NCBI RefSeq assembly: GCF_017642925.1
Contig: NZ_JAEPOL010000002.1
Span: 138,457-202,456 of the forward strand
Reading direction: 5' to 3'
Length of the DNA stretch: 64,000 bases
Origin: Maricaulis sp.
GTDB lineage: Bacteria > Pseudomonadota > Alphaproteobacteria > Caulobacterales > Maricaulaceae
Below the pieces are notes generated by a model. It was not told where the DNA came from, did no database searches, and saw only the letters and a program-made list of their open reading frames with translations. The translations under genes and the position numbers were made by a program. Below, piece after piece: positions 913 to 12,585 of this stretch. Position 1 is the stretch's first letter; every line of letters starts with the position of its first letter.

Positions 913-1001
913 CTCCACGACGGGCGGCGGAAGCCTCTCTTCCACCTGCAACCCGTCACGGCCAACCGACCCACCCTCTCACTCTCCTGTTGTCGGGGTG
1001 G
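913..1001 (-). repeat. Conserved structured leader repeat, copy A
   Basis: Plus-strand blocks CTCC-ACGACGGG ... AGCCTCTCT ... CAACCCGTCACG (949-960) ... CCCTCTCACTCT, shared with copies B-D. Confidence 0.85.
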
Positions 1002-1371: not shown

Positions 1372-1546
1372 GGCGAATGGCTTTCATCTTGATGGAGCGA
1401 AATCGGCGTGATCGCCGACGGTTCTTTCCGATGCGGGTCGAGATCGCAATGCCGTCCGGCACGCAAGCGGCAATCGGCGGCGATTGTCGGGAGAAGGCCC
1501 GACTGCGCTTGGGCACCGGGCCTTGGGAGTGAGGCGCTTTCGCGCC

Positions 1547-1711
1547 TCAGCTCCACGGATCGAGTTCCAGCTTCACCATCTCCTCGTCGCCGTCGAACTC
1601 GTCGGCCGGCATGGCGGAGTGGGTTCCATCTCCGGCCTGAAACACGACGATGGAAACCATCAGCGTGGTGGCGAGGCTGGCGGCGAAGGCGGTGGCATCT
1701 GCATAGGACAT
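1547..1711 (-). CDS. Small hypothetical protein (54 aa)
   Basis: MSYADATAFAASLATTLMVSIVVFQAGDG...; the protein-like 3' part of ORF 1547-2155, start reassigned to ATG 1711. Confidence 0.55.
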   Translation of the reverse strand: MSYADATAFAASLATTLMVSIVVFQAGDGTHSAMPADEFDGDEEMVKLELDPWS

Positions 1712-2778: not shown

Positions 2779-2807
2779 AAAAAAAAGGCCCGGCCGGGGC
2801 CGAGCCT
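2779..2807 (-). terminator. Intrinsic terminator downstream of the parB-like gene
   Basis: GC hairpin AGGCTCGGCC-CC-GGCCGGGCCT followed by a T run on the minus strand. Confidence 0.65.
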
Positions 2808-2858
2808 ATATGGGGTGGGGAGTAAGCGGGGCGACCGAGACCGCCCCGCTGGTGCGCG

Positions 2859-5021
2859 TCACTCGGCGGCGACCAAGGCCACCGGATCGTCGGCGGCATC
2901 GGCCGCGTTCTCATCGTCACCGGCGAGGAAATCGGGCAACGCCATGCCATTCTCGTCCTGATCGGCTGAGCCATCCACGGCCTGCGCGTCCACGGTGGGG
3001 CGCAGCGGCTCCGGCAGCCAGCCGGTATCGGCCAGAAGCCGCTCGGCCTCCTTCGCCATGTCGCCCTTCTTGAGATGCGCGATGAGATCGGCCGCGCGAT
3101 CGCCGGCGCCTTCACGCACCGCTTCGAGGATGCGAGTCTTGGTCACGCGGCCGAGGTAGTTCTCGACCGTGGGTTTCCAGCCGGCTTCGACAAGATCGAG
3201 GCCGGTGGCCTGCGCCAGCCGTTCGGCCTCGGCCATGCGGCGGTCGAGACCGTGCTGCGAGATGCCATTCCCCGAATAGGGGTTCGGCCGCTCATAGAGC
3301 GCGTTGACGCCGAAGCTGACGCAATGGGCGAGCAGCGCCAGGCGGCTGGCATCGTCGAGGCCGTCGATCCAGCCCCAGAGCCTGTCGTCATCACCGGAGG
3401 GAATGTCGCCCCGCCAGGCGTCCGCGCGTTCGTCGATCATCTTCGCGGCGGCACTGTCCGCGAGCCCGGTCGCATCGGCCGGGAGATAGATGTGACGCAC
3501 GGCGGCATAAAGGCTCGTTCCCGAGGTGGACGTGCGCTCGAAGGTATCGAGAACCAGCTTGTGCAGCAGGGCCGTCATGGCGACGTGCGGATTCTCGGCG
3601 AGCGCATTGCGCAGCGCCAGCGTCCGCCATGCGGTCAGGTCCGTCACCAGCCGCTCGGGCAGCGGTTTGACAGCATCGTCCTCTTCCTCGTCGGCGTCCG
3701 GGACCGGCTCGCCGCCGACAGTGATGACGGCGCGCTGCACGGCATCAGGGTCGGACGGGTCCGCGCCCTCTCCGGCATCCTCGCCATCGACCGTCTCGGG
3801 TTGCTCATCCTCGCGGCGGACGTAGCCGCTGCTGACGATCAACTCGCCCTCGCGGCCGATACTGACGAAAACACCGGCACGGGCGATGTCTTCCGGCGCG
3901 AAGGTGACGGGCCGGTTCTCGAAGGCTTCCAGCTCGGCCTCGATCTCCCCGAGACGCTGATCGGCCTCATCGGGGAGGTCGTCGGCTTCGGCATACTTGG
4001 CTTCGAGTTCGTCATACTCGTCGCGCAGCGCCTCGCGCGTGGCGCGCTCCTCTTCGGTCAGTTCCTGGGTCACACCGGCCAGCTTGCGCAGGCCGTTGGT
4101 GTGGCCGTAGGGCAGCTCGACCGCCGCGTCGATCCACTTCCAGCCTTGACCGGCGATCTCGTCGGCAATGGCGCGCAGCTTCTCGTCGACCAGGCGGTCG
4201 AGGAGCGTGACGTCCTGCAACCAGCCGCCGTTTTCCTCGGAGAAGAGGTCGCGCAGCACCGGGCCGCCCGCTGTCTCATAGGCTTCGACGCCGATAAAGC
4301 GGGCGCGCTTATCGGCGGCCGGAACCGTGGTCTCGGTCAGCATATTGCGGATCTGCCAGGGCTCCTTCTGCCACGACGTGCTGATGCGCTCCCAGACCTG
4401 ATGCTGGCGCTCGTGGTCGGGGTTGACGGTGAAGGCTTCCAGCATCGCCAGCGTCATCTCGTTGCGCGCATAGGCATCGTGTAGTGTCGGCGCGACGGTG
4501 GCGAGGCGCAGACGCTGCATGATGTAGCGCGGCGTGGTCCGCCAGGCGTCGGCGATCTCCTCCTTCGACATGCCCATGTCGAACATCCGCTTGAACGCCT
4601 TGAACTGGTCGAGCGGATGCAGGGCGAGGCGCAGCAGGTTCTCGGCCAGCGAGTCGTCGACGGCCGAGGTCTTGGCGTCGGCCTTCTTGACGATGCAAGG
4701 CACAAGCCCTTCGGCCGGGAAGCGACCGGCTTCCACAAGGCGCGCGATGGACCTGTAGCGGCGGCCGCCTGCGGGTGTCTCGAAATCGCCGGTCTCATTG
4801 CCGTCCTCGTCGAATACGGCGCGGACATTGAGACCTTGCACGAGATCTTCCCGCCGGTCGATGTCATGGGTCAGGTCGTCCAGGCCGGCCTCCACGTCGA
4901 TCTCGCGGACGTTGCTATCCGACAGTCGGATGCGGTTGAACGGAATATCGCGCGCCCGCGAGAACTCGATCATCTGAAGGGCGGGCTTCTTTTTCTTGGC
5001 AGCTCGGGCCATGGTGGTCAT
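2859..5021 (-). CDS. ParB/RepB/Spo0J-family N-terminal domain protein (720 aa, ICE/plasmid leading-region type)
   Basis: GLNVR...AGGRRYRS...SLAENLLRLALHPLDQFKAF ParB/Srx fold motif, then HTH and a long acidic C-terminal region. Confidence 0.9.
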   Translation of the reverse strand: MTTMARAAKKKKPALQMIEFSRARDIPFNRIRLSDSNVREIDVEAGLDDLTHDIDRREDLVQGLNVRAVFDEDGNETGDFETPAGGRRYRSIARLVEAGRFPAEGLVPCIVKKADAKTSAVDDSLAENLLRLALHPLDQFKAFKRMFDMGMSKEEIADAWRTTPRYIMQRLRLATVAPTLHDAYARNEMTLAMLEAFTVNPDHERQHQVWERISTSWQKEPWQIRNMLTETTVPAADKRARFIGVEAYETAGGPVLRDLFSEENGGWLQDVTLLDRLVDEKLRAIADEIAGQGWKWIDAAVELPYGHTNGLRKLAGVTQELTEEERATREALRDEYDELEAKYAEADDLPDEADQRLGEIEAELEAFENRPVTFAPEDIARAGVFVSIGREGELIVSSGYVRREDEQPETVDGEDAGEGADPSDPDAVQRAVITVGGEPVPDADEEEDDAVKPLPERLVTDLTAWRTLALRNALAENPHVAMTALLHKLVLDTFERTSTSGTSLYAAVRHIYLPADATGLADSAAAKMIDERADAWRGDIPSGDDDRLWGWIDGLDDASRLALLAHCVSFGVNALYERPNPYSGNGISQHGLDRRMAEAERLAQATGLDLVEAGWKPTVENYLGRVTKTRILEAVREGAGDRAADLIAHLKKGDMAKEAERLLADTGWLPEPLRPTVDAQAVDGSADQDENGMALPDFLAGDDENAADAADDPVALVAAE

Positions 5022-5109
5022 CTCCGCGACGGGCGGTCGTGAGCCTCTCTCTCGACCTCCAACCCGTCACGAAGCGAAGCGCCGCCCTCTTACTCTAAGA
5101 GGGCAGCGC
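5022..5109 (-). repeat. Conserved structured leader repeat, copy B
   Basis: CTCC-GCGACGGG ... GAGCCTCTCT ... CAACCCGTCACG (5060-5071) ... GCGCCGCCCTCTT-ACTCT-AAGAGGGCAGCGC hairpin. Confidence 0.85.
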
Positions 5110-5149
5110 TGTCGCAAGGACACGGGCTATTCAGCTTTGGAACAGCTCG

Positions 5150-5536
5150 TCAGTCGGCCTCGGCAACATTCGCGTTCGGGTATTCCCGCCGGTCGAAGAC
5201 CGTGGCGGGGCCATGATCAGCGTGTTGAAGGGCGCCCTCTATGAAGAAGTGCTGCGGATCGAACCCTTGGTAGAAGGCATCGACCGCGGCATCCTCATCC
5301 TCTGCTTCGACCTCCTGGACGAAGCAGACCCACATCGCCCGCCGCTGGCGGACGAAGTAGCGGTTCATGGCGGGGACGCACTCGAATACCTCGTTGATGT
5401 CGCCGTCCGTCGCGGCGGCTTCAAACTGCTCGACGGCATGATTCCGGTCCGCGGCCTTGCACAGCCAGAACTCGTTCTCGGCGCCATGGCAGATGAGGAA
5501 GGTTTTCAGGGGCGTGGGTGACTGAATAGCAGGCAT
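5150..5536 (-). CDS. Hypothetical protein (128 aa)
   Basis: Start reassigned to ATG 5536 (MPAIQSPTPLKTFLICHG...) after GGAG SD and leader repeat C. Confidence 0.65.
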   Translation of the reverse strand: MPAIQSPTPLKTFLICHGAENEFWLCKAADRNHAVEQFEAAATDGDINEVFECVPAMNRYFVRQRRAMWVCFVQEVEAEDEDAAVDAFYQGFDPQHFFIEGALQHADHGPATVFDRREYPNANVAEAD

Positions 5537-5543
5537 CTGCGTT

Positions 5544-5631
5544 CTCCGTGGCGGGCCGCCGGGAGCCTCTCTCCCGGCACCCAACCCGCCACGACCCAAA
5601 GCGCCGCCCTCTGTCTCCAGAAGGGCGGCGC
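5544..5631 (-). repeat. Conserved structured leader repeat, copy C
   Basis: CTCC-GTGGCGGG ... GAGCCTCTCT ... CAACCCGCCACG (5582-5593); stem shows a compensatory change relative to the other copies. Confidence 0.85.
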
Positions 5632-5691
5632 TGCGAGCCGGAAAATCGCAAAGCCGGAAATCCGGCTATGTGCATCGGCGAGTTTCAGCAG

Positions 5692-6642
5692 TCACACCCC
5701 GCACATGCCCTCGCATTCGTTCGGCCAGAGGTCGAGCTGGCCATGATCGGCGGCTGTCGAAAGATCGGCCAGATCGAGCGGGACGGCGGAACGGTGAAGA
5801 TAGACCTCGCCGCGAATGCCCCGGAAGCCCGTGCGGATGGCGGCATCGACCGACACGGCATCGGTCCACCCTTCGGGATCGTGGTCACGCATATGCCGCC
5901 AATAGGCATTGGAATGGAACGGGCAGCCGATGCAGGCGCTCTTGGGCGGGAGAGGATAGCCATGCCGCTCCAGCCAGCGCAGGCAGTCCTGGCGGGTCAT
6001 GCCCCGTTCGATCAGGGGCCAGCGGTTGACCTGCCAGTCCTCAAACGAGGGCTTCATGCGCAACGCCTCGTCGAGAGAAATCCCGATCCATTGCTCGGCG
6101 ACTGGCGATCCGGGCGAGCGGCGCCCCGCAATGCCAAGGAGTTCGCGCACCTTCCGCCGGATTGGGGTGATCTTGTAGTCCTTGGTGCATTGGCGGCGGA
6201 TCATGCCAATGCTGATCCGCTCACCTGCCAGGACGCGGGAACCGACAATGACGGGTTCGCCGTTCTCGTCTTCATCATAGACGGGTAGTTCAGTCCCAGC
6301 GGGCGCGACCGTGCGTGTGAAGGCGGGGATCGAGGCCCACCGCTCGCCGCGTGCGCCGGTGAGCAGATCGGCGCGGATATCCCCGGCCGAGACGATATGG
6401 ATGGGGAATGGCAGGACATTCGGCGATCCCAGCCAGGCAAGATGCTCATAGACCGCGTTCGGCTCCCAGCCGGTGTCCGCGAAGATCGCGCAATCCGGCA
6501 TCGGGCCGATCTCGCCATGGGCAGCCATGAGGGCGAGCGTGGTCGACTGGACGCCGGCGCCGAGGCTGAGGACACGCAGGCGGATCTCGGCCGCCTGCGC
6601 AGGATCGGGGATCGAGCCGGGAAAGGCGAGCGCGTTCATCAT
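5692..6642 (-). CDS. PAPS-reductase-like / PP-loop (adenine nucleotide alpha-hydrolase) family protein
   Basis: LRVLSLGAGVQSTT PP-loop, FADTGWE, RQCTKDYKI, SACIGCPFH, C-terminal ECEGMCGV. Confidence 0.8.
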   Translation of the reverse strand: MMNALAFPGSIPDPAQAAEIRLRVLSLGAGVQSTTLALMAAHGEIGPMPDCAIFADTGWEPNAVYEHLAWLGSPNVLPFPIHIVSAGDIRADLLTGARGERWASIPAFTRTVAPAGTELPVYDEDENGEPVIVGSRVLAGERISIGMIRRQCTKDYKITPIRRKVRELLGIAGRRSPGSPVAEQWIGISLDEALRMKPSFEDWQVNRWPLIERGMTRQDCLRWLERHGYPLPPKSACIGCPFHSNAYWRHMRDHDPEGWTDAVSVDAAIRTGFRGIRGEVYLHRSAVPLDLADLSTAADHGQLDLWPNECEGMCGV

Positions 6643-7592
6643 GCTGCCTCCCGCTCATCGTCGGCCGCACCGAGCCCGTCCGCATCTGGCAGGAAGGACA
6701 AAATCCAGTCGGCCGCTTTGCTCGCCTGCGAGGCAGCGCGGACGACGGCCCGGTTGTCCTCGCGCAGCACTTCGAGCCAGGAGGCGATGTAATCCGCATG
6801 GCGGACGGTCGGCACAATGCCGAGGGAGGCACAGCAGAAGGCGGCCGAGATTTCCGCCACCAGCTCCTCGAAAGCGTATTTCCTGGTGCCGAAGGAACCG
6901 GAAAAATCGCGGTTCAGCCGGGACGCATGGCCTGTCGCATGACCCAGCTCATGCAGGGCCGTCCGGTGCCAGTTGATCGGCTCGAAATAGGCTTGCGGCG
7001 GCGGAACGACCACATGGTCGAGGGCCGGGACGTAGTAGGCGCGGTCGCCGCCGATGCGGAAGTCGATGCCGGTCGCCTTGATGAGCGCCTCGACCCTCGG
7101 CTCGACCAGTCCGGATGGCGGAGGCGGCATGGCCACGGCAATGTCCTCGGGCAGGCCCTCGCACTGCGCGGTGTTGAACACCGTGAACCGCTTCAGGAAC
7201 GGGATCTTCCCCGGTTCCTCGCCGGTCTCTCGCGCCCGCCGCTTCTCGTCCTCGGGCGTGAAGCGATCGGCATAGACGACGGTTGTGCCGCACTCGCCCT
7301 TGCGGACATTGCCGCCGAGCGAAAGCGCCTGGCGGAAGGTGAGCCAGCCCTGTCCGGGGAAGCCGTGCTGGACGACGGCGCCCCACAGGATGAGGATATT
7401 GATGCCGCTATAGGCGCGGCCGGTGCTGGCGTTCTGCGGCAGGCCGAGCGGGGCCTGGGCCGTGGCCTTGCCCCAGGGCTGGACCCAAGGAAAGCGCCCG
7501 GCCTCAAGCTCGGCGATGATCTTGTCGGTGATCTCGTCGTAAAGGTTCGCCCGATCCGCGCCGGAACGGGGGGTATGGTCGTATCTGGACAT
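6639..7592 (-). CDS. ardC: ArdC-family anti-restriction ssDNA-binding protein (DUF1738 + zincin-like)
   Basis: YDEITDKIIAELEAGRFPWVQPW, NASTGRAYSGIN, WLTFRQA, ALHELGHATGH, YAFEELVAE. Confidence 0.93.
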   Translation of the reverse strand: MSRYDHTPRSGADRANLYDEITDKIIAELEAGRFPWVQPWGKATAQAPLGLPQNASTGRAYSGINILILWGAVVQHGFPGQGWLTFRQALSLGGNVRKGECGTTVVYADRFTPEDEKRRARETGEEPGKIPFLKRFTVFNTAQCEGLPEDIAVAMPPPPSGLVEPRVEALIKATGIDFRIGGDRAYYVPALDHVVVPPPQAYFEPINWHRTALHELGHATGHASRLNRDFSGSFGTRKYAFEELVAEISAAFCCASLGIVPTVRHADYIASWLEVLREDNRAVVRAASQASKAADWILSFLPDADGLGAADDEREAA

Positions 7593-7599
7593 CGCGGTT

Positions 7600-7674
7600 C
7601 TCCGCGACGGGCGCCGGAGACCTCTTCTCCAGCCCTCAACCCGTCACGGCAAACCCCGTCTGCACTCTCACTCT
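7600..7674 (-). repeat. Conserved structured leader repeat, copy D
   Basis: CTCC-GCGACGGG ... GAGACCTCTTCT ... CAACCCGTCACG (7637-7648) ... CTCTCACTCT directly upstream of ardC. Confidence 0.85.
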
Positions 7675-7693
7675 AAAGCGGCGCTGCCGCCGA

Positions 7694-8161
7694 TCACGGC
7701 GGCGCGGTGCCGTGCCCAACCGCAAGTTCGTCCGTGGTCGGCGGTTCGAACATCTTCGACCAAGCGAGAAGATCGTTCGGATCGACAGCCGCATCGGCAG
7801 GCGCATCGCGGTTGCGGGCGATGATCCGACGCTGCAACTCCTCGACGGGGACGTCGAGATAGTGAAGCCGGGTCTCGCAGCCGAGCGACTGCGCAACCGC
7901 CCGGTAGGAATCGCGCTCCTCTCTTGACCAGAAGCCGTTCTCCAGAATGACGTCGTTTCCGGCGGCCAGAAGGCGTTGGGCCAGACGCCATTGCAACTGC
8001 TCGACACGCGCGCGGCCGCCCTCGTCGTAGAGCTGGAATCCGAGCGTGGACATCCATTCATCGGGAGAGAGGCGAAGCCCCTTTCCCTGATTCTCAAGCT
8101 GCCGTGCCAATGTGGTCTTGCCCGAGCCGGGAAGCCCACAGATGAGATGAAGTATAGGCAT
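7694..8161 (-). CDS. AAA_33-like P-loop ATPase/kinase
   Basis: ILHLICGLPGSGKTTLARQL Walker A, LSPDEW, VILENGFWSREER; start reassigned to ATG 8161. Confidence 0.85.
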   Translation of the reverse strand: MPILHLICGLPGSGKTTLARQLENQGKGLRLSPDEWMSTLGFQLYDEGGRARVEQLQWRLAQRLLAAGNDVILENGFWSREERDSYRAVAQSLGCETRLHYLDVPVEELQRRIIARNRDAPADAAVDPNDLLAWSKMFEPPTTDELAVGHGTAPP

Positions 8162-8411
8162 TGGGACAGTGTATCGCGAGGCGAGCGCGTCCACCACATC
8201 ACTGAGTCCGGCTGAGACCTACCCAGGGGGCGTTGCGGGGTCTCCCCGCAGAAGGGGGTGTGCCGGCAACGCAGTGCCGGCCAGGGGGAAGGCTTTCCCC
8301 CGCAAGAACCGACAACCGCAAAAGCGTAGAAGTGCAAGTAAGCAATACCTGACTTCACCTGCCGCTATAGCCAAACGAGCAACCTGCTTTCGACGTTCGA
8401 CCATCTTGGCA

Positions 8412-10046: not shown

Positions 10047-10478
10047 TCAGGTTCTCTGGTCCGGCTCCGAGGGGAGCGCATATCGGATAACACGCAGATG
10101 GTCATCGTCCTCCAGCGTGACTTCAAGCACCTGGTTCACAAGGTCTGGATCGGCGTCAAGTTCGAGCAGGGCTTGCTCGAACAACTCCAACTGGAGGGCT
10201 CGCGTCATACCCTCGGGGCCATTGAGGCAGACCAGGCCGGCATGCAGATCGACACGGGCATATTGCCCTTTCTCGCCGGGGCGCGAGGCTGCGCCCCGGA
10301 AATCGACGGAATTGCGGGTCACGAAGGTCCAGTCGTCCTCGATGATGAGGGGGATGAGATCCCAGTCCTTCGCGCCCGAGCGGCCCAGCCAGACGACATG
10401 GGACGATTCCCCATGCCCCCTCTGGTGAGCCAGCTCGGTCAGCTTCGGGCTGAGGCATTCGTCGATCAGGAACTTCAT
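10047..10478 (-). CDS. DUF5615-family PIN-like toxin
   Basis: MKFLIDECLSP, FVTRNSVDF; overlaps the DUF433 gene stop. Confidence 0.8.
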   Translation of the reverse strand: MKFLIDECLSPKLTELAHQRGHGESSHVVWLGRSGAKDWDLIPLIIEDDWTFVTRNSVDFRGAASRPGEKGQYARVDLHAGLVCLNGPEGMTRALQLELFEQALLELDADPDLVNQVLEVTLEDDDHLRVIRYALPSEPDQRT

Positions 10479-11125
10479 CCGGCTCGCCTGCGCGGCACGC
10501 GATGATCCGAGAGGATGCGCGCACCTTCGGGCAGTCTGGCGATGAGCGGCTTCGGCCGTCCGCGAAGGGGGTTGGCCTCCGCATAGAGCGCGGCCAATTC
10601 CAGCCTGTCCTCGGTCAGAGACGGATAATCCTCAAGGATCTCCTTGGCGGGGACGCCCGCCGCCAATGCGGCCGCGACGTCGTGAACCGGAACGCGCGTG
10701 CCGCTGATGACCGGGGTGCCGCCCATGATGTCATCGGAGATGGTGACCACCTCGCGCGCGGCGTCCAGCCGTTCCAGCCGTGCGACGGAACGCTCGAAGA
10801 AGGGCAGAAGGTCGATGGTCAGGAAGTCGTGGCGAACGGTCCAGTCGGCTTTCAGCATGGCCTCGGTGGCTGCGCGGTTCCAGCGCCGCAACCGTGGCTC
10901 GGCGGAGCGGATGGCGAACAGGCGTTCCTCCGAGGTCAGCCGTTTGGCGCTCTCGAAATAGAAGGCGATCAGGGTGCAGGCGGCCCCTAGCACGAAACGT
11001 CCGTTTTCGACCGAGACCAGCGTTTCGGGCAGGATGCGCTCGTCGATGACGCGATTGACATCGCGCAGGCTGACGCGGGCGACCACGGCCGCCTCCGTGG
11101 CCTTCAGCATTTCAGTCGCGGGCAT
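10475..11125 (-). CDS. DUF433-domain antitoxin with N-terminal HTH-like region
   Basis: DIMGGTPVISGTRVPVHDV...EILEDYPSLTEDRLELAALYA DUF433 motif; start reassigned to ATG 11125 (GGAGG SD). Confidence 0.85.
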   Translation of the reverse strand: MPATEMLKATEAAVVARVSLRDVNRVIDERILPETLVSVENGRFVLGAACTLIAFYFESAKRLTSEERLFAIRSAEPRLRRWNRAATEAMLKADWTVRHDFLTIDLLPFFERSVARLERLDAAREVVTISDDIMGGTPVISGTRVPVHDVAAALAAGVPAKEILEDYPSLTEDRLELAALYAEANPLRGRPKPLIARLPEGARILSDHRVPRRRAG

Positions 11126-11226
11126 GGACGCCTCCAACCAATAAATCTTCCGATGTGTCGGAATATATATTGGAGGCGCCCCAATTTCAAGGCTGACCCA
11201 CGATCCGCCAGCCGTTTCCGCCATCC

Positions 11227-12585
11227 TCAAGCCGCCAGAGGCTGCGCCACGTCGGCGGTTCTGTCGTCGTTGCCTGCTGCCTTCTGAAGGAAGCGCGCGA
11301 GCGACGTCTTCCGGGAGTCCCGATCCAGCGCGTAGGCGGTCTGCTTGAACTCGATGCCATCGAGCAGGCCCTGAATGTAGCCAGCAATCGTGTCGGCCGC
11401 CATGATGAGGGCCGTGTCGACGGTGTGGATGTAATTGCTCGTGACAGACCCCTTGGCGTGACCGACGAGAGCGGCGATGGTGATCTCCGTGAACCCGAGA
11501 TCATTCGCTATGCTCGCGAAGCTATGGCGAAGAACGTGGGGAGTGACATCGGCAAGCGGGGAGTCCGTGAAGATCTTCTTCCAGTGATTGGGGAAGCTGC
11601 CGAACGCTCTGTCCTCATCACGGCCGGGAAACACATAAGTGCCGATACGCGACTTGGCGCGCTCTTCCAGATACTCCACGACAGGCAGCCCGATGGGCCG
11701 AATGGAATAGCCTTCCTTGCTGTCTTCAAGGCGCAGGCAACTGGCTTGGGCGTCAACTTCGCTCCAGCTTAGCCCGATCATTTCCGATCGGCGGCAACCC
11801 GTCATGGTGATCTGGCGGATGATCTCGACGGTCATGGCATAATTCTCGTTCTGCGCTGCTTTGCGCAGCAAGACACCAAGTAGGCGATACTCCGCCTCGG
11901 ACAGCCGACGCTTGCGGACGTTATCCTTCGGTTTCTTGATGCCATGCGCCGGGTTCCGCTCGATGATCCCAGCATCGACGGCATAGGTAAGAATACCGCC
12001 GAGAAGGCTGACGGTTCGAGCGGCAGTCCCAGGACCGCCGCGGACAATGGCCCTGCCTCTAAGCTTATCGGTCTTGACCGAAATCCGAGTTTTACCCGCC
12101 ATGACGTCTTTGAGGAGCTTGTTGACGTCGGATTTGGTCAAGTCACGCACCCGCCGACTGCCCAAGAGCGGGATGATGTGCCGGTTGATCCGCCCGGTAT
12201 CGGTCACAATCGTGCTGTGCTTCTTTGGACGGCCGCCTTTCCCCATGATGAGACCGGCGTTCATGTCATTCAGATAAAGAGTGCAGAGTTCCTTGACCGA
12301 CATGGACTTGCGATCGAGCTGCTTTTCCTCGGCCGGGTCTTCGCCGCGCGCGATCCTGCCAAGTTGGACCTTGGCCTCCTGGCGGGCCAGTTCTGGCGTC
12401 CAGATACCATGCAGGCCGATGGTGTAGCGCCGCGACCGTCCTCCCTGGCGATACTGGATCACATAGCTGCGCTTGCCTGATGTGAAGACACGAAGCCCGA
12501 AACCGGGTAGCTCATCGTCCCAGATCACGTAATCACTGCGACGGCTTTCCGCCGCATCGACGACGCGTTTTGTAAGTTTAGCCAT
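11227..12585 (-). CDS. Tyrosine recombinase/integrase 1 (Arm-DNA-bind_3/DUF4102 N-terminus)
   Basis: WDDELPGFGLRV arm-binding domain; catalytic TGCRRSE, DSK, HVLRHS, GH, NYIH. Confidence 0.95.
   Translation of the reverse strand: MAKLTKRVVDAAESRRSDYVIWDDELPGFGLRVFTSGKRSYVIQYRQGGRSRRYTIGLHGIWTPELARQEAKVQLGRIARGEDPAEEKQLDRKSMSVKELCTLYLNDMNAGLIMGKGGRPKKHSTIVTDTGRINRHIIPLLGSRRVRDLTKSDVNKLLKDVMAGKTRISVKTDKLRGRAIVRGGPGTAARTVSLLGGILTYAVDAGIIERNPAHGIKKPKDNVRKRRLSEAEYRLLGVLLRKAAQNENYAMTVEIIRQITMTGCRRSEMIGLSWSEVDAQASCLRLEDSKEGYSIRPIGLPVVEYLEERAKSRIGTYVFPGRDEDRAFGSFPNHWKKIFTDSPLADVTPHVLRHSFASIANDLGFTEITIAALVGHAKGSVTSNYIHTVDTALIMAADTIAGYIQGLLDGIEFKQTAYALDRDSRKTSLARFLQKAAGNDDRTADVAQPLAA

What the first reader, a model, noticed from the sequence alone, without database searches (positions are those of the whole stretch)
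5692..7592. ArdC translationally coupled to a PAPS-reductase-like, Cys-rich PP-loop enzyme
Seen: the ardC stop overlaps the ATG of a 316-aa SLGAGVQS PP-loop protein (ATGA at 6639-6642) with Cys motifs RQCT, CIGCPFH and ECEGMC, all under leader repeat D. Established: this superfamily includes PAPS reductase and DndC, the [4Fe-4S] enzyme of DNA phosphorothioation. Inference: no sulfate-assimilation genes are nearby, so it may be an anti-defence enzyme that modifies incoming DNA or nucleotides alongside ArdC.
Basis: partly seen in the sequence, partly recalled or inferred. Interest (0 to 1): 0.58.

Follow-up and report, generated by a model that had tools for sequence, protein, structure and literature searches.

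The report
ArdC-coupled PptA/SspD-like sulfur enzyme
An integrative conjugative element (ICE) couples its anti-restriction gene ardC to an uncharacterised iron-sulfur enzyme of the phage and plasmid "PAPS reductase-like" family (lambda NinC, PptA), which is related to the sulfur-inserting enzymes of DNA phosphorothioation, is not the sulfate-assimilation enzyme CysH, and probably helps incoming DNA to establish.

Summary
On the minus strand, ardC (6639-7592) ends in ATGATGA, which also starts a 315/316-aa gene (5692-6642). One leader-repeat copy lies before ardC, none between the genes, and the next after the second gene.

The same junction (TGATG, with GGAGG upstream) is present in 51 of 80 related alphaproteobacterial loci, including Ti/At plasmids. 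There ArdC has diverged to about 40% identity, but the enzyme stays near 71%.

The enzyme has a PAPS-reductase-like fold (Z 11-13) but no Pfam or NCBIfam hit. By profile it is closest to SspD (E 8e-22), then lambda NinC (9e-11) and PptA (1e-8). DndC and CysH are far weaker (about 1e-4). In a tree it is a separate clade from CysH.

None of 145 family representatives has the canonical SGGxDS loop. Six cysteines are invariant, including a C-terminal ECxxxC tail shared with PptA, which was crystallised with E. coli IscS (PDB 21fy).

The host has its own cysH operon and no Dnd or Ssp system.

Most likely this is a host-IscS-dependent sulfur-relay enzyme with an establishment or anti-defence role. 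Its chemistry is untested.

This scan has flagged the family, and its ArdC neighbourhood, before on other DNA.

The parts
7599..7680 (-). Leader repeat copy D, directly upstream of ardC. It holds a conserved stem (GACGGG...CCCGTC) that abuts the GGAGA ribosome-binding site.
   Evidence: Direct-repeat families D2, D11 and D13. Four-copy alignment A3. The same motif sits 963-1006 nt before the enzyme start, just upstream of ardC, in related ICE loci.
6639..7592 (-). ardC: an ssDNA-binding ArdC-N domain plus a zincin metallopeptidase domain (HELGH), 317 aa.
   Evidence: Pfam ArdcN 1.2e-43 and MPTase-PolyVal 6.1e-51. Translation.
6647..6652 (-). Shine-Dalgarno GGGAGG for the second gene, lying inside the 3' end of ardC.
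   Evidence: Read. GGAGG is conserved at this spacing in 51 of 80 loci.
6637..6642 (-). Coupling junction ATGATG(A). The ardC stop TGA (6641-6639) overlaps two in-frame ATGs. The conserved start is 6639-6637.
5692..6642 (-). PptA/NinC/SspD-like Fe-S enzyme gene (protein P0001), 316 aa from the first ATG and 315 aa from the conserved one.
   Evidence: phrog_424 6.8e-48. hhalign to SspD 8.4e-22, to NinC 8.6e-11 and to PptA 9.7e-09. AlphaFold2 model pLDDT 92. PAPS-reductase fold, Z 12.9.
6544..6567 (-). Codons for SLGAGVQS (residues 26-33), a degenerate nucleotide loop at the position of the PP-loop.
   Evidence: It aligns to LSGGKDS of SspD. GxG[VLIM]QS occurs in 131 of 145 representatives and SGGxDS in 0 of 145.
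5923..6189 (-). Codons for the four internal invariant cysteines, C152 (6187-6189), C220 (5983-5985), C237 (5932-5934) and C240 (5923-5925). These are the predicted [4Fe-4S] ligands.
   Evidence: Invariant columns in A1. C152, C237 and C240 align to SspD cysteines. C220 aligns to the DCL cysteine of PptA.
5701..5715 (-). Codons for the C-terminal tail cysteines C310 and C314 (E-C-E-G-M-C), a predicted mobile sulfur-carrying tail.
   Evidence: CxxxCG-x at the C-terminus in 120 of 145 representatives. It aligns to ECSLVC of PptA. SspD ends in CxxC and CysH in ECGIH.
5543..5633 (-). Leader repeat copy C, which opens the next unit (a 128-aa gene, 5150-5536) and marks the end of the bicistronic unit.

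Best explanation
What is shown. The gene after ardC encodes a member of the large family of phage and plasmid proteins routinely labelled 'PAPS reductase' (PHROG 424; lambda NinC; PptA of Vibrio phage VH-5). The family has the PAPS-reductase fold. By sequence it belongs with the DNA-phosphorothioation sulfur enzymes SspD and DndC, not with CysH. It keeps four internal cysteines suited to a [4Fe-4S] cluster and an E-C-x-x-x-C tail at the very C-terminus. It has lost the SGGxDS motif that ATP-cleaving PP-loop enzymes need. It is co-transcribed with ardC under one leader element and translationally coupled to it.

What is inferred.
- After the element's DNA enters a new cell, ArdC and this enzyme are probably made together in similar amounts.
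- The enzyme probably takes sulfur from the resident cysteine desulfurase IscS onto its tail cysteines or cluster, as the PptA-IscS co-crystal suggests.
- It would then use that sulfur on the incoming nucleic acid, or against sulfur-based (Dnd/Ssp-type) or other restriction. That would aid establishment alongside ArdC.
- It works without DndD/E or SspB/C partners.
- Because the ATP-cleaving motif is missing, its chemistry is unlikely to be a plain copy of DndC or SspD.
For: Family and fold:
- phrog_424 at 6.8e-48.
- AlphaFold2 model with pLDDT 92.
- Fold matches to PAPS reductase (Z 12.9), CysH (11.6) and APS reductase (11.2).

Profile comparisons:
- SspD: 99.4% probability, E 8.4e-22 over 217 columns.
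- DndC: E 6e-5. CysH: E 7e-5.
- NinC: 97%, E 8.6e-11.
- PptA: 95.7%, E 9.7e-09, including alignment of the ECxxxC tail.

Tree: the family is monophyletic (SH-aLRT 93), lies beside DndC+SspD (89) and is separated from CysH (99).

Motifs: six invariant cysteines.

IscS link: PDB 21fy holds PptA together with a chain identical to E. coli IscS. PptA is 100% identical, over the 73 residues tested, to a VH-5 phage gene lying just after the RNA polymerase gene.

Coupling to ArdC:
- ArdC lies directly upstream on the same strand, abutting or overlapping the enzyme's start, in 53 of 80 loci.
- The junction is TGATG in 51 of these.
- ArdC identity ranges from 36 to 91%. Where ArdC averages 40%, the enzyme averages 71%.
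- The same pair lies near traG/traA on Agrobacterium Ti/At and Roseibium plasmids.
- Where ArdC is absent (L060, L078), the leader sits 49-55 nt before the enzyme gene.

DNA context elsewhere:
- Fusions to N6/N4 DNA methylases, DUF5131 and winged-helix domains.
- DNA methylases, helicases and nucleases as phage neighbours.

Literature precedent: a phage PAPS-domain/Dam fusion is part of an anti-Dnd determinant (preprint 10.1101/2021.05.05.442762). PAPS reductases occur in Aca-regulated anti-defence operons (PMC13551039).

Not metabolic: the host has cysH next to sulfite reductase and cysteine synthase genes, and cysD, elsewhere. The family is sporadic, found in about 8-10 of 400 sampled alphaproteobacterial genomes.
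Against: - No experiment or computation here shows any DNA or nucleotide modification, IscS binding by this protein, or an effect on transfer.
- Homology to PptA is distant (about 23% identity over 181 aligned columns). No paper describing PptA's function was found in the library.
- The loss of SGGxDS and the CysH-like G-V-Q-S loop would also fit sulfonucleotide-reductase chemistry.
- Operon coupling shows co-expression, not a joint mechanism. 19 of 80 loci and all 80 viral loci lack an adjacent ArdC.
- No ArdC fusion was found among longer homologues. That search is weak evidence.
- Whether the genes lie in the true leading region of this ICE was not established.
Confidence: 0.55

Rival explanations
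1. It is a true sulfonucleotide (APS/PAPS) reductase, an auxiliary metabolic gene that raises sulfite and cysteine supply for the element or host. C310 would be the nucleophile and C314 an in-built resolving cysteine.
For: The best fold matches are PAPS/APS reductases. The nucleotide loop lacks SGGxDS, as in CysH. The motifs are collinear with the host CysH: SxG, DTG, C-x(4)-K-x-x-P and IGC. The Cys pattern resembles the CC...CxxC plus EC tail of Fe-S APS reductases.
Against: No Pfam PF01507 or NCBIfam CysH hit at any threshold, whereas the host CysH scores 138.6 bits. The profile match to CysH (7e-5) is 17 orders of magnitude weaker than to SspD. The family lies apart from CysH in the tree. 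The host already has cysH in a sulfate-assimilation operon. Neighbours are ardC, parB-like, ssb and methylase genes, not sulfur metabolism. The relative PptA was crystallised with IscS, which CysH chemistry does not need.
Confidence: 0.15
2. It is a non-catalytic or dominant-negative mimic of SspD/DndC. It would bind host IscS/DndA/SspA or other phosphorothioation-system parts and so blind or starve sulfur-based defences (Dnd, Ssp, BREX type 4) in the recipient.
For: It is closest to SspD yet has lost the ATP-cleaving SGGKDS motif. PptA binds IscS in a crystal. A phage PAPS-domain protein is part of an anti-Dnd determinant.
Against: Many presumed active-site residues are invariant across more than 5,000 50%-identity clusters (R150, K157, D191, E192, R195 and six Cys). 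That points to catalysis. Dnd and Ssp are rare: 15-20 and 12 of 401 sampled Pseudomonadota genomes respectively. The family, by contrast, is widespread in phages of many phyla.
Confidence: 0.15
3. Its working partner is the ParB-like protein encoded downstream (2859-5021), as in IbrA/IbrB or DndB/DndC pairs. ArdC would be only an operon neighbour.
For: A homologue of the 720-aa ParB-like protein lies within 8 kb in 45 of 80 loci, and full-length copies usually sit 0.1-2 kb downstream on the same strand. ParB-superfamily proteins accompany PAPS-reductase-like proteins in Dnd (DndB; PMC10853773).
Against: The ParB-like gene has its own leader copy, and a 128-aa gene separates it from the enzyme. 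On Ti-type plasmids it lies about 5 kb away on the other side. None of 80 viral loci has it. No ParB family appears among the phage upstream neighbours. No DUF3440 (the IbrA mark) is present.
Confidence: 0.07
4. It modifies RNA (for example tRNA thiolation) or makes a small sulfur-containing metabolite, unrelated to DNA entry.
For: Fold neighbours include the tRNA thiolases NcsA and TtuA, and LarE, all with Fe-S or sulfur chemistry.
Against: Sequence profiles place it with SspD/DndC. Fusions and neighbours are DNA methylases, DNA helicases and nucleases. It is coupled to an ssDNA-binding anti-restriction protein.
Confidence: 0.05

Closest known systems
PptA of Vibrio phage vB_VhaP_VH-5 (PDB 21fy, co-crystal with E. 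coli IscS)
   Same: Profile match 95.7%, E 9.7e-09. Both have a degenerate loop without SGGxDS. All six family-invariant cysteines are shared, including the DCL cysteine, the CxxC pair and the C-terminal E-C-x-x-x-C tail. Both are carried by a mobile element and sit in an early or entry gene set.
   Different: PptA is 250 aa against 315 aa and lacks the beta-rich insert at residues about 96-146. Identity is only about 23%. It sits after the RNA polymerase gene of a T7-like phage with no ArdC. I found no paper on its function.
SspD, the PAPS-reductase-like subunit of SspABCD single-strand DNA phosphorothioation
   Same: It is the best characterised relative: hhalign 99.4%, E 8.4e-22 over 217 columns. 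The DTG, C-T-x-x-x-K-x-x-P, I-[RS]-x-D-E and CxxC motifs are shared. Both end in a di-cysteine tail. SspD binds its cysteine desulfurase SspA (PMC7188994).
   Different: SspD keeps SGGKDS (12 of 12) and is an ATP pyrophosphatase; this family has it in 0 of 145. The tail is CxxC in SspD and CxxxC here. C220 is absent from SspD. No sspA/B/C genes are nearby or in the genome. The PADLOC SspD model gives only a local 36.5-bit hit, against 278-461 bits for true SspD.
Bacteriophage lambda NinC (Nin 290) / PHROG 424
   Same: Same catalogued phage family label. P0001 matches phrog_424 at 6.8e-48. A1 against NinC gives 97%, E 8.6e-11 over 238 columns. Function is unknown in both.
   Different: NinC has SGGRTS, which is closer to a real PP-loop. 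It belongs to a different subfamily: 588 phage records match NinC against 47 for P0001. It sits in the nin recombination region, not beside ardC.
DndC (TIGR03183), sulfurtransferase of DndABCDE
   Same: Same superfamily. Both are Fe-S enzymes in the branch that groups beside this family in the tree.
   Different: The profile match is weak (E 6e-5). There is no NCBIfam hit. DndC is 436-557 aa with SGGKDS and no C-terminal Cys tail. No dndD/E is in the genome.
CysH / APS reductase (PF01507)
   Same: Best fold matches (Z 11-13). The nucleotide loop lacks the Lys-Asp of PP-loops. Both have a cysteine in a C-terminal EC motif.
   Different: No HMM hit. It forms a separate clade. The host has its own cysH in a sulfate-assimilation operon. 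The gene context is a mobile element.
PAPS-domain/Dam fusion p0018 of Vibrio crassostreae podophage 44E38.1 (anti-Dnd determinant)
   Same: It is a mobile-element PAPS-reductase-domain protein with genetic evidence for a counter-defence role. This family also occurs fused to DNA methylases.
   Different: Its subfamily relation to P0001 was not tested here. It is fused to Dam, and the effect was shown for a two-gene cassette, not for the PAPS domain alone.

Membership tests
PHROG 424 / NinC-PptA family of phage and plasmid 'PAPS reductase-like' proteins | Significant full-length match to the family profile and to named members | tested here: met
   phrog_424 6.8e-48, residues 22-316. NinC 8.6e-11. 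PptA 9.7e-09.
PHROG 424 / NinC-PptA family of phage and plasmid 'PAPS reductase-like' proteins | Cysteine signature: C-T, DCL, CxxC and a C-terminal E-C-x-x-x-C | tested here: met
   Invariant in A1. Present in PptA. CxxCP[FY] in 134 of 145 and the tail in 120 of 145 representatives.
PHROG 424 / NinC-PptA family of phage and plasmid 'PAPS reductase-like' proteins | Binding of host cysteine desulfurase IscS | not testable with these tools
   Known only for PptA, from the chain content of PDB 21fy.
PP-loop ATP pyrophosphatases | SGGxDS pyrophosphate-binding motif | tested here: not met
   The protein has SLGAGVQS. 0 of 145 family representatives have SGGxDS, against 12 of 12 SspD and 10 of 10 DndC.
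PP-loop ATP pyrophosphatases | Adenine-nucleotide alpha-hydrolase fold | tested here: met
   Z 9-13 to PAPS reductase, TilS, GMP synthetase, LarE and NcsA.
SspD (Ssp phosphorothioation) | Homology to the SspD profile | tested here: met
   hhalign 99.4%, E 8.4e-22. The PADLOC model gives only a local 36.5-bit hit.
SspD (Ssp phosphorothioation) | Canonical SGGKDS motif and ATP pyrophosphatase activity | tested here: not met
   The motif is lost. Activity is not testable here.
SspD (Ssp phosphorothioation) | Operon with sspA, sspB and sspC | tested here: not met
   Neighbours are ardC, a 128-aa gene and a ParB-like gene. The only SspD-like full match in the genome is this gene.
DndC (Dnd phosphorothioation) | TIGR03183 match above the cut-off | tested here: not met
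   No NCBIfam hit at E 0.01. No TIGR03183 match anywhere in the genome. hhalign gives only 6e-5.
DndC (Dnd phosphorothioation) | dndB/D/E partners | tested here: not met
   No DndD (TIGR03185) in a 99.99%-complete genome.
CysH / APS-PAPS reductase | PF01507 or CysH HMM above the cut-off | tested here: not met
   No Pfam hit even at E 10. The host CysH scores 138.6 bits and CysD 184.9 bits.
CysH / APS-PAPS reductase | Clusters with CysH in a phylogeny | tested here: not met
   It forms a separate clade. The CysH split has SH-aLRT 99. Rows used were 27 family members, 12 SspD, 10 DndC and 3 CysH; the row CysH_L201 was left out as a mis-picked ORF.
CysH / APS-PAPS reductase | C-terminal ECG[IL]H catalytic cysteine | tested here: inconclusive
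   The protein has E-C-E-G-M-C-G-V at the C-terminus. The EC is shared and the rest differs.
CysH / APS-PAPS reductase | Sulfate-assimilation gene context | tested here: not met
   The host cysH lies next to sulfite reductase and cysteine synthase genes on another contig.
IbrA (PAPS reductase + DUF3440, with ParB-like IbrB) | DUF3440 C-terminal domain and an adjacent ParB-nuclease gene | tested here: not met
   No Pfam domain detected. The ParB-like gene is a separate leader-driven unit and is absent from the phage loci.
ArdC (upstream gene) | ArdC-N ssDNA-binding domain plus a zincin HExxH peptidase domain | tested here: met
   HELGH is seen in the translation.

The most novel reading that the evidence does not exclude
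ArdC and this enzyme form a minimal two-protein system. The ssDNA-binding ArdC-N domain would bring the enzyme to the incoming transferred strand. There the enzyme would use sulfur taken from the recipient's IscS to put a sulfur mark (phosphorothioate-like or thio-base) on single-stranded DNA, without the DndD/E or SspB/C proteins. This would be a portable, self-protective DNA sulfur modification used for anti-restriction by conjugative elements, including Ti plasmids.
Probability: 0.15. Interest if true: 0.85.

Novelty: new member of a known kind. Interest (0 to 1): 0.5.

Why it matters
This family is one of the commonest unexplained enzymes of phages and plasmids. The search found more than 5,000 clusters at 50% identity. 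Members include lambda NinC and genes on Agrobacterium Ti/At plasmids. They are routinely mislabelled as a sulfate-assimilation enzyme or as a hypothetical protein.

The work here places the family with the DNA-phosphorothioation sulfur enzymes. It shows that the family lacks their ATP-cleaving motif. It also shows that in alphaproteobacterial conjugative elements the gene is locked to the anti-restriction gene ardC by a conserved overlapping stop/start.

Together these points give a concrete and genetically tractable system for finding out what these enzymes do. If they mark or protect incoming DNA with host-derived sulfur, that would be a new route by which mobile elements cross defence barriers.

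Tried and rejected
Neighbourhoods came from the search for related loci, plasmid and phage records, and my own scripts instead.
- Pfam, at E up to 10, and NCBIfam gave nothing for the enzyme.
- A sequence search of the PDB with the single protein gave only noise-level hits.
- Comparing A1 with a single host CysH or CysD sequence by hhalign was not significant (E 0.07-0.8). I then built small family alignments.
- Five paper searches for PptA found no description of it. No paper holds both 'ArdC' and a PAPS-reductase term.
- Rfam has no family for the leader repeat. There were only sub-threshold Yfr1/SorY-like hits elsewhere.
- The consensus scan found no promoter and no terminator after the enzyme gene. 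By eye, a 6-bp hairpin (AGCCGG/CCGGCT, 5652-5667) follows the stop.
- The search for longer, fused forms found no ArdC fusion. This is weak evidence.
- The apparent C5-methylase fusion on a Mesorhizobium plasmid carries only the first third of a methylase domain. It may be a truncation or an annotation artefact, so I did not count it.
- Model coordinates are not exposed, so I could not measure whether the four internal cysteines cluster in 3D.
- I did not establish where oriT lies in this ICE. 'Leading region' is therefore not shown for this window.
- I considered a role tied to a resident Dnd or Ssp system and rejected it, because none is found in the genome.
Full report
**The observation**

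Both genes lie on the minus strand. ORF 6639-7592 (317 aa) carries the ArdC-N domain (1.2e-43) and the polyvalent-protein zincin peptidase domain (6.1e-51), with an HELGH motif.

ORF 5692-6642 (316 aa) follows it. The minus-strand junction reads GGGAGG-CAGC-ATG-ATG-A. The ardC stop TGA (6641-6639) overlaps two in-frame ATGs.

A copy of the roughly 90-nt leader repeat begins at 7599, just upstream of ardC. No copy lies between the two genes. The next copies, at 5543-5633 and 5021-5111, precede the following two genes. So ardC and the second gene form one leader-driven bicistronic unit.

**Is the coupling more than chance?**

I fetched 80 loci encoding relatives (53-89% identical) from species-representative genomes. 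Nearly all are Alphaproteobacteria.

- In 53 loci an ArdC homologue lies directly upstream on the same strand, abutting or overlapping the enzyme's start.
- In 51 of these the junction is TGATG, with GGAGG 8-9 nt upstream. Two more overlap by 4 nt.
- The conserved start corresponds to the second ATG here (6639), giving 315 aa. That is the length of most homologues.
- The pairing spans ArdC clades that have diverged to 36-42% identity, while the enzyme stays near 71%. Spearman rho between the two identities is 0.81 (n=42). These loci are relatives, not independent samples.
- The same overlapping pair lies a few kb from traG-traD-traC/traA on Agrobacterium Ti/At plasmids and a Roseibium plasmid. 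There it is annotated 'hypothetical protein'.
- Where ArdC is missing (L060, L078), the leader motif sits 49-55 nt before the enzyme gene. The enzyme is therefore a module of the leader-controlled gene set in its own right.

**What the protein is**

Pfam and NCBIfam give no hit, even at E 10. PHROG 424 ('phosphoadenosine phosphosulfate reductase') matches at 6.8e-48, and the PADLOC SspD model matches locally at 1.1e-9.

The family is very large. There are 5,299 clusters at 50% identity with E <= 0.001, and 1,442 at <= 1e-30. At least 522 viral contigs encode relatives.

An alignment of 52 representatives has invariant C152, C220, C237, C240, C310 and C314, plus R150, K157, D191, E192 and R195.

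The AlphaFold2 model is confident (pLDDT 92). It has the adenine-nucleotide alpha-hydrolase fold. The best matches are PAPS reductase (Z 12.9), LarE-[4Fe-4S] (11.7), CysH (11.6), CysD (11.6) and APS reductase (11.2). These values are effectively tied.

**Placing it among the known enzymes**

I built small alignments of DndC (10), SspD (12) and CysH (4) from genome searches. I compared each with the family as profiles.

| Compared with | Probability | E-value |
|---|---|---|
| SspD | 99.4% | 8.4e-22 (217 columns) |
| lambda NinC | 97% | 8.6e-11 |
| PptA | 95.7% | 9.7e-09 |
| DndC | not quoted | 6e-5 |
| CysH | not quoted | 7e-5 |

A maximum-likelihood tree used 263 columns and 52 rows, with one mis-picked CysH row left out. 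In it the family is monophyletic (SH-aLRT 93). It lies beside DndC+SspD (89) and is split from CysH (99).

The residue-level alignment to SspD shows shared DTG, C-T-x-x-x-K-x-x-P, I-[RS]-x-D-E and CxxC motifs. The loop SLGAGVQS, however, aligns to LSGGKDS with the Lys and Asp lost.

Across 145 representatives, none has SGGxDS and 131 have GxG[VLIM]QS. All SspD and DndC sequences keep SGGxDS.

From established knowledge of this superfamily, members that cleave ATP between the alpha and beta phosphates keep the motif. These include DndC, SspD, CysD and the tRNA thiolases. CysH, which does not cleave ATP, has lost it. So calling this protein a 'PP-loop enzyme' is right for the fold but not for the motif, and DndC-type adenylation cannot be assumed.

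The C-termini also differ. This family ends in E-C-x-G-x-C-G-x (120 of 145). SspD ends in CxxC. CysH ends in ECGIH. DndC has no such tail.

**The solved relative**

With the family profile, the only PDB sequence hit is 'PptA', chain C of entry 21fy (E 4.7e-4).

Earlier notes from this scan said that PptA comes from Vibrio phage vB_VhaP_VH-5 and was crystallised with IscS. I tested both claims.

- A 73-residue stretch of the PptA chain, as printed, is 100% identical to a VH-5 gene directly after the phage RNA polymerase gene.
- Entry 21fy also holds a chain identical to E. coli IscS.

The VH-5 protein (250 aa) shares the degenerate loop and all six family cysteines. This includes an E-C-S-L-V-C tail that aligns to E-C-E-G-M-C.

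This is the strongest pointer to mechanism. Members of this family engage the host cysteine desulfurase, as SspD does with SspA and DndC with DndA (PMC7188994). I found no paper describing PptA.

**Context**

- The host genome (99.99% complete) has a real cysH fused to a DUF934-like N-terminus. It lies between sulfite reductase and cysteine synthase genes. The genome also has cysD. Both are on other contigs.
- The genome has no DndC or DndD, and no other SspD-like gene.
- The element is an ICE. A tyrosine integrase lies at 11227-12585, with a DUF433/PIN pair, an MFS transporter and an AAA_33 kinase-like gene beside it.
- To the left of the ardC unit lie a 128-aa gene, a 720-aa ParB-like protein and an SNase. 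Beyond the window start lie a 1,472-aa Sbno-type helicase, a SLOG protein, SSB, RepA, ParA, an N6/N4 DNA methylase and an S26 peptidase. This is a typical establishment and anti-restriction gene set.
- The family is sporadic: about 8-10 full-length copies in 400 evenly sampled alphaproteobacterial genomes.
- In phages there is no ArdC or ParB partner. Upstream neighbours are mixed DNA-metabolism genes: UvrD helicases (5 of 69), C5 methylases (3), N6/N4 methylases (2) and VRR-NUC (2).
- Fused forms carry DUF6339, N6/N4 DNA methylase, DUF5131, winged-helix domains or inteins.

**Literature**

- A PAPS-domain/Dam fusion plus one more gene lets a Vibrio podophage escape Dnd (preprint 10.1101/2021.05.05.442762).
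- PAPS reductases occur in Aca-regulated anti-defence operons (PMC13551039).
- Orphan 'SspD' hits occur in Sinorhizobium prophages beside methylases (PMC12429752).

**How it most likely works**

*Shown:*
- family membership, fold and the conserved residues;
- the loss of SGGxDS;
- the conserved coupling to ardC under one leader;
- independence from sulfate assimilation and from any resident Dnd or Ssp system;
- IscS binding by a distant family member.

*Inferred:*
- The enzyme is made together with ArdC when the element's genes are first expressed in a new cell.
- It loads sulfur from IscS onto its tail cysteines and/or assembles a [4Fe-4S] cluster on C152/C220/C237/C240.
- It then acts on the incoming nucleic acid or on a defence pathway, which helps establishment.

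The lost ATP-cleaving motif leaves the chemistry open. I give the overall reading 0.55. The rivals are a true sulfonucleotide reductase (0.15), a non-catalytic mimic that blocks phosphorothioation-based defences (0.15), a ParB-partnered enzyme (0.07) and an RNA or small-molecule role (0.05).

**Novelty**

The gene is a new member of a catalogued but biochemically unexplained family. The conserved ArdC coupling is not mentioned in any paper the library holds. This scan had already noted it, and the family, on other DNA.

Noticed in passing
window 913-1000, 5021-5111, 5543-5633, 7599-7680 (minus strand); loci L009-L027, L060, L078: The roughly 90-nt leader repeat is conserved at the same positions in ICEs of many other alphaproteobacterial genera: before ardC, after the enzyme gene, and before the ParB-like gene. 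Its 3' stem arm (CCCGTCGCGGAG) runs into the ribosome-binding site. No Rfam family matches it.
   Followed up: partly
window 2859-5021 (-): The annotated ATG of the 720-aa ParB-like gene follows the leader's GGAG with no spacer (GGAGATG), so the true start is probably further downstream. The protein gives only a weak ParB-HTH Pfam hit (5.7e-4), yet it is conserved in 45 of 80 related loci.
   Followed up: no
window 7694-8197 (-): A 167-aa AAA_33 / zeta-toxin-like kinase gene lies just upstream of the ardC leader. Only 2 of 80 related loci had a hit to either ORF that overlaps its coordinates, so it is probably variable cargo.
   Followed up: no
window 10047-11230 (-): A DUF433 gene (251 aa) overlaps a DUF5615/PIN-like gene (143 aa) next to the integrase. 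This looks like a toxin-antitoxin pair at the ICE end.
   Followed up: no
window 2779-2850 and 1494-1548 (-): Two sub-threshold Rfam hits to the cyanobacterial sRNA Yfr1 (33.2 and 23.1 bits; gathering score 38) lie just downstream of gene ends. They may be a second repeated structured element or terminators.
   Followed up: no
G000 contig C1, 14725-19143 of locus L171 (left of the window): A 1,472-aa Strawberry-notch-type helicase has about 440 unassigned N-terminal residues. It is followed by a YspA-type SLOG protein and SSB, which extends the establishment gene set beyond the window.
   Followed up: partly
proteins P0303, P0319: Some homologues of the enzyme carry LAGLIDADG intein-type endonuclease domains (PF14528) inside the gene.
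   Followed up: no
proteins P0208, P0213, P0275-P0316: A recurrent fusion of about 555 aa joins DUF6339 to this enzyme family, mostly in metagenomic and Chloroflexota sequences. DUF6339 has no known function.
   Followed up: no
locus L089 (M. abscessus prophage) 3030-5143: In mycobacterial prophages, the gene overlapping the start of the enzyme gene is annotated 'RNA methyltransferase' but is DUF5131 (Gp37/Gp68, 1.5e-94). A DUF5131 fusion also exists (P0317).
   Followed up: partly
locus L006 964-2106: The host's own CysH carries an N-terminal extension of about 150 aa, upstream of a classical CC...CxxC...ECGIH APS-reductase core.
   Followed up: no
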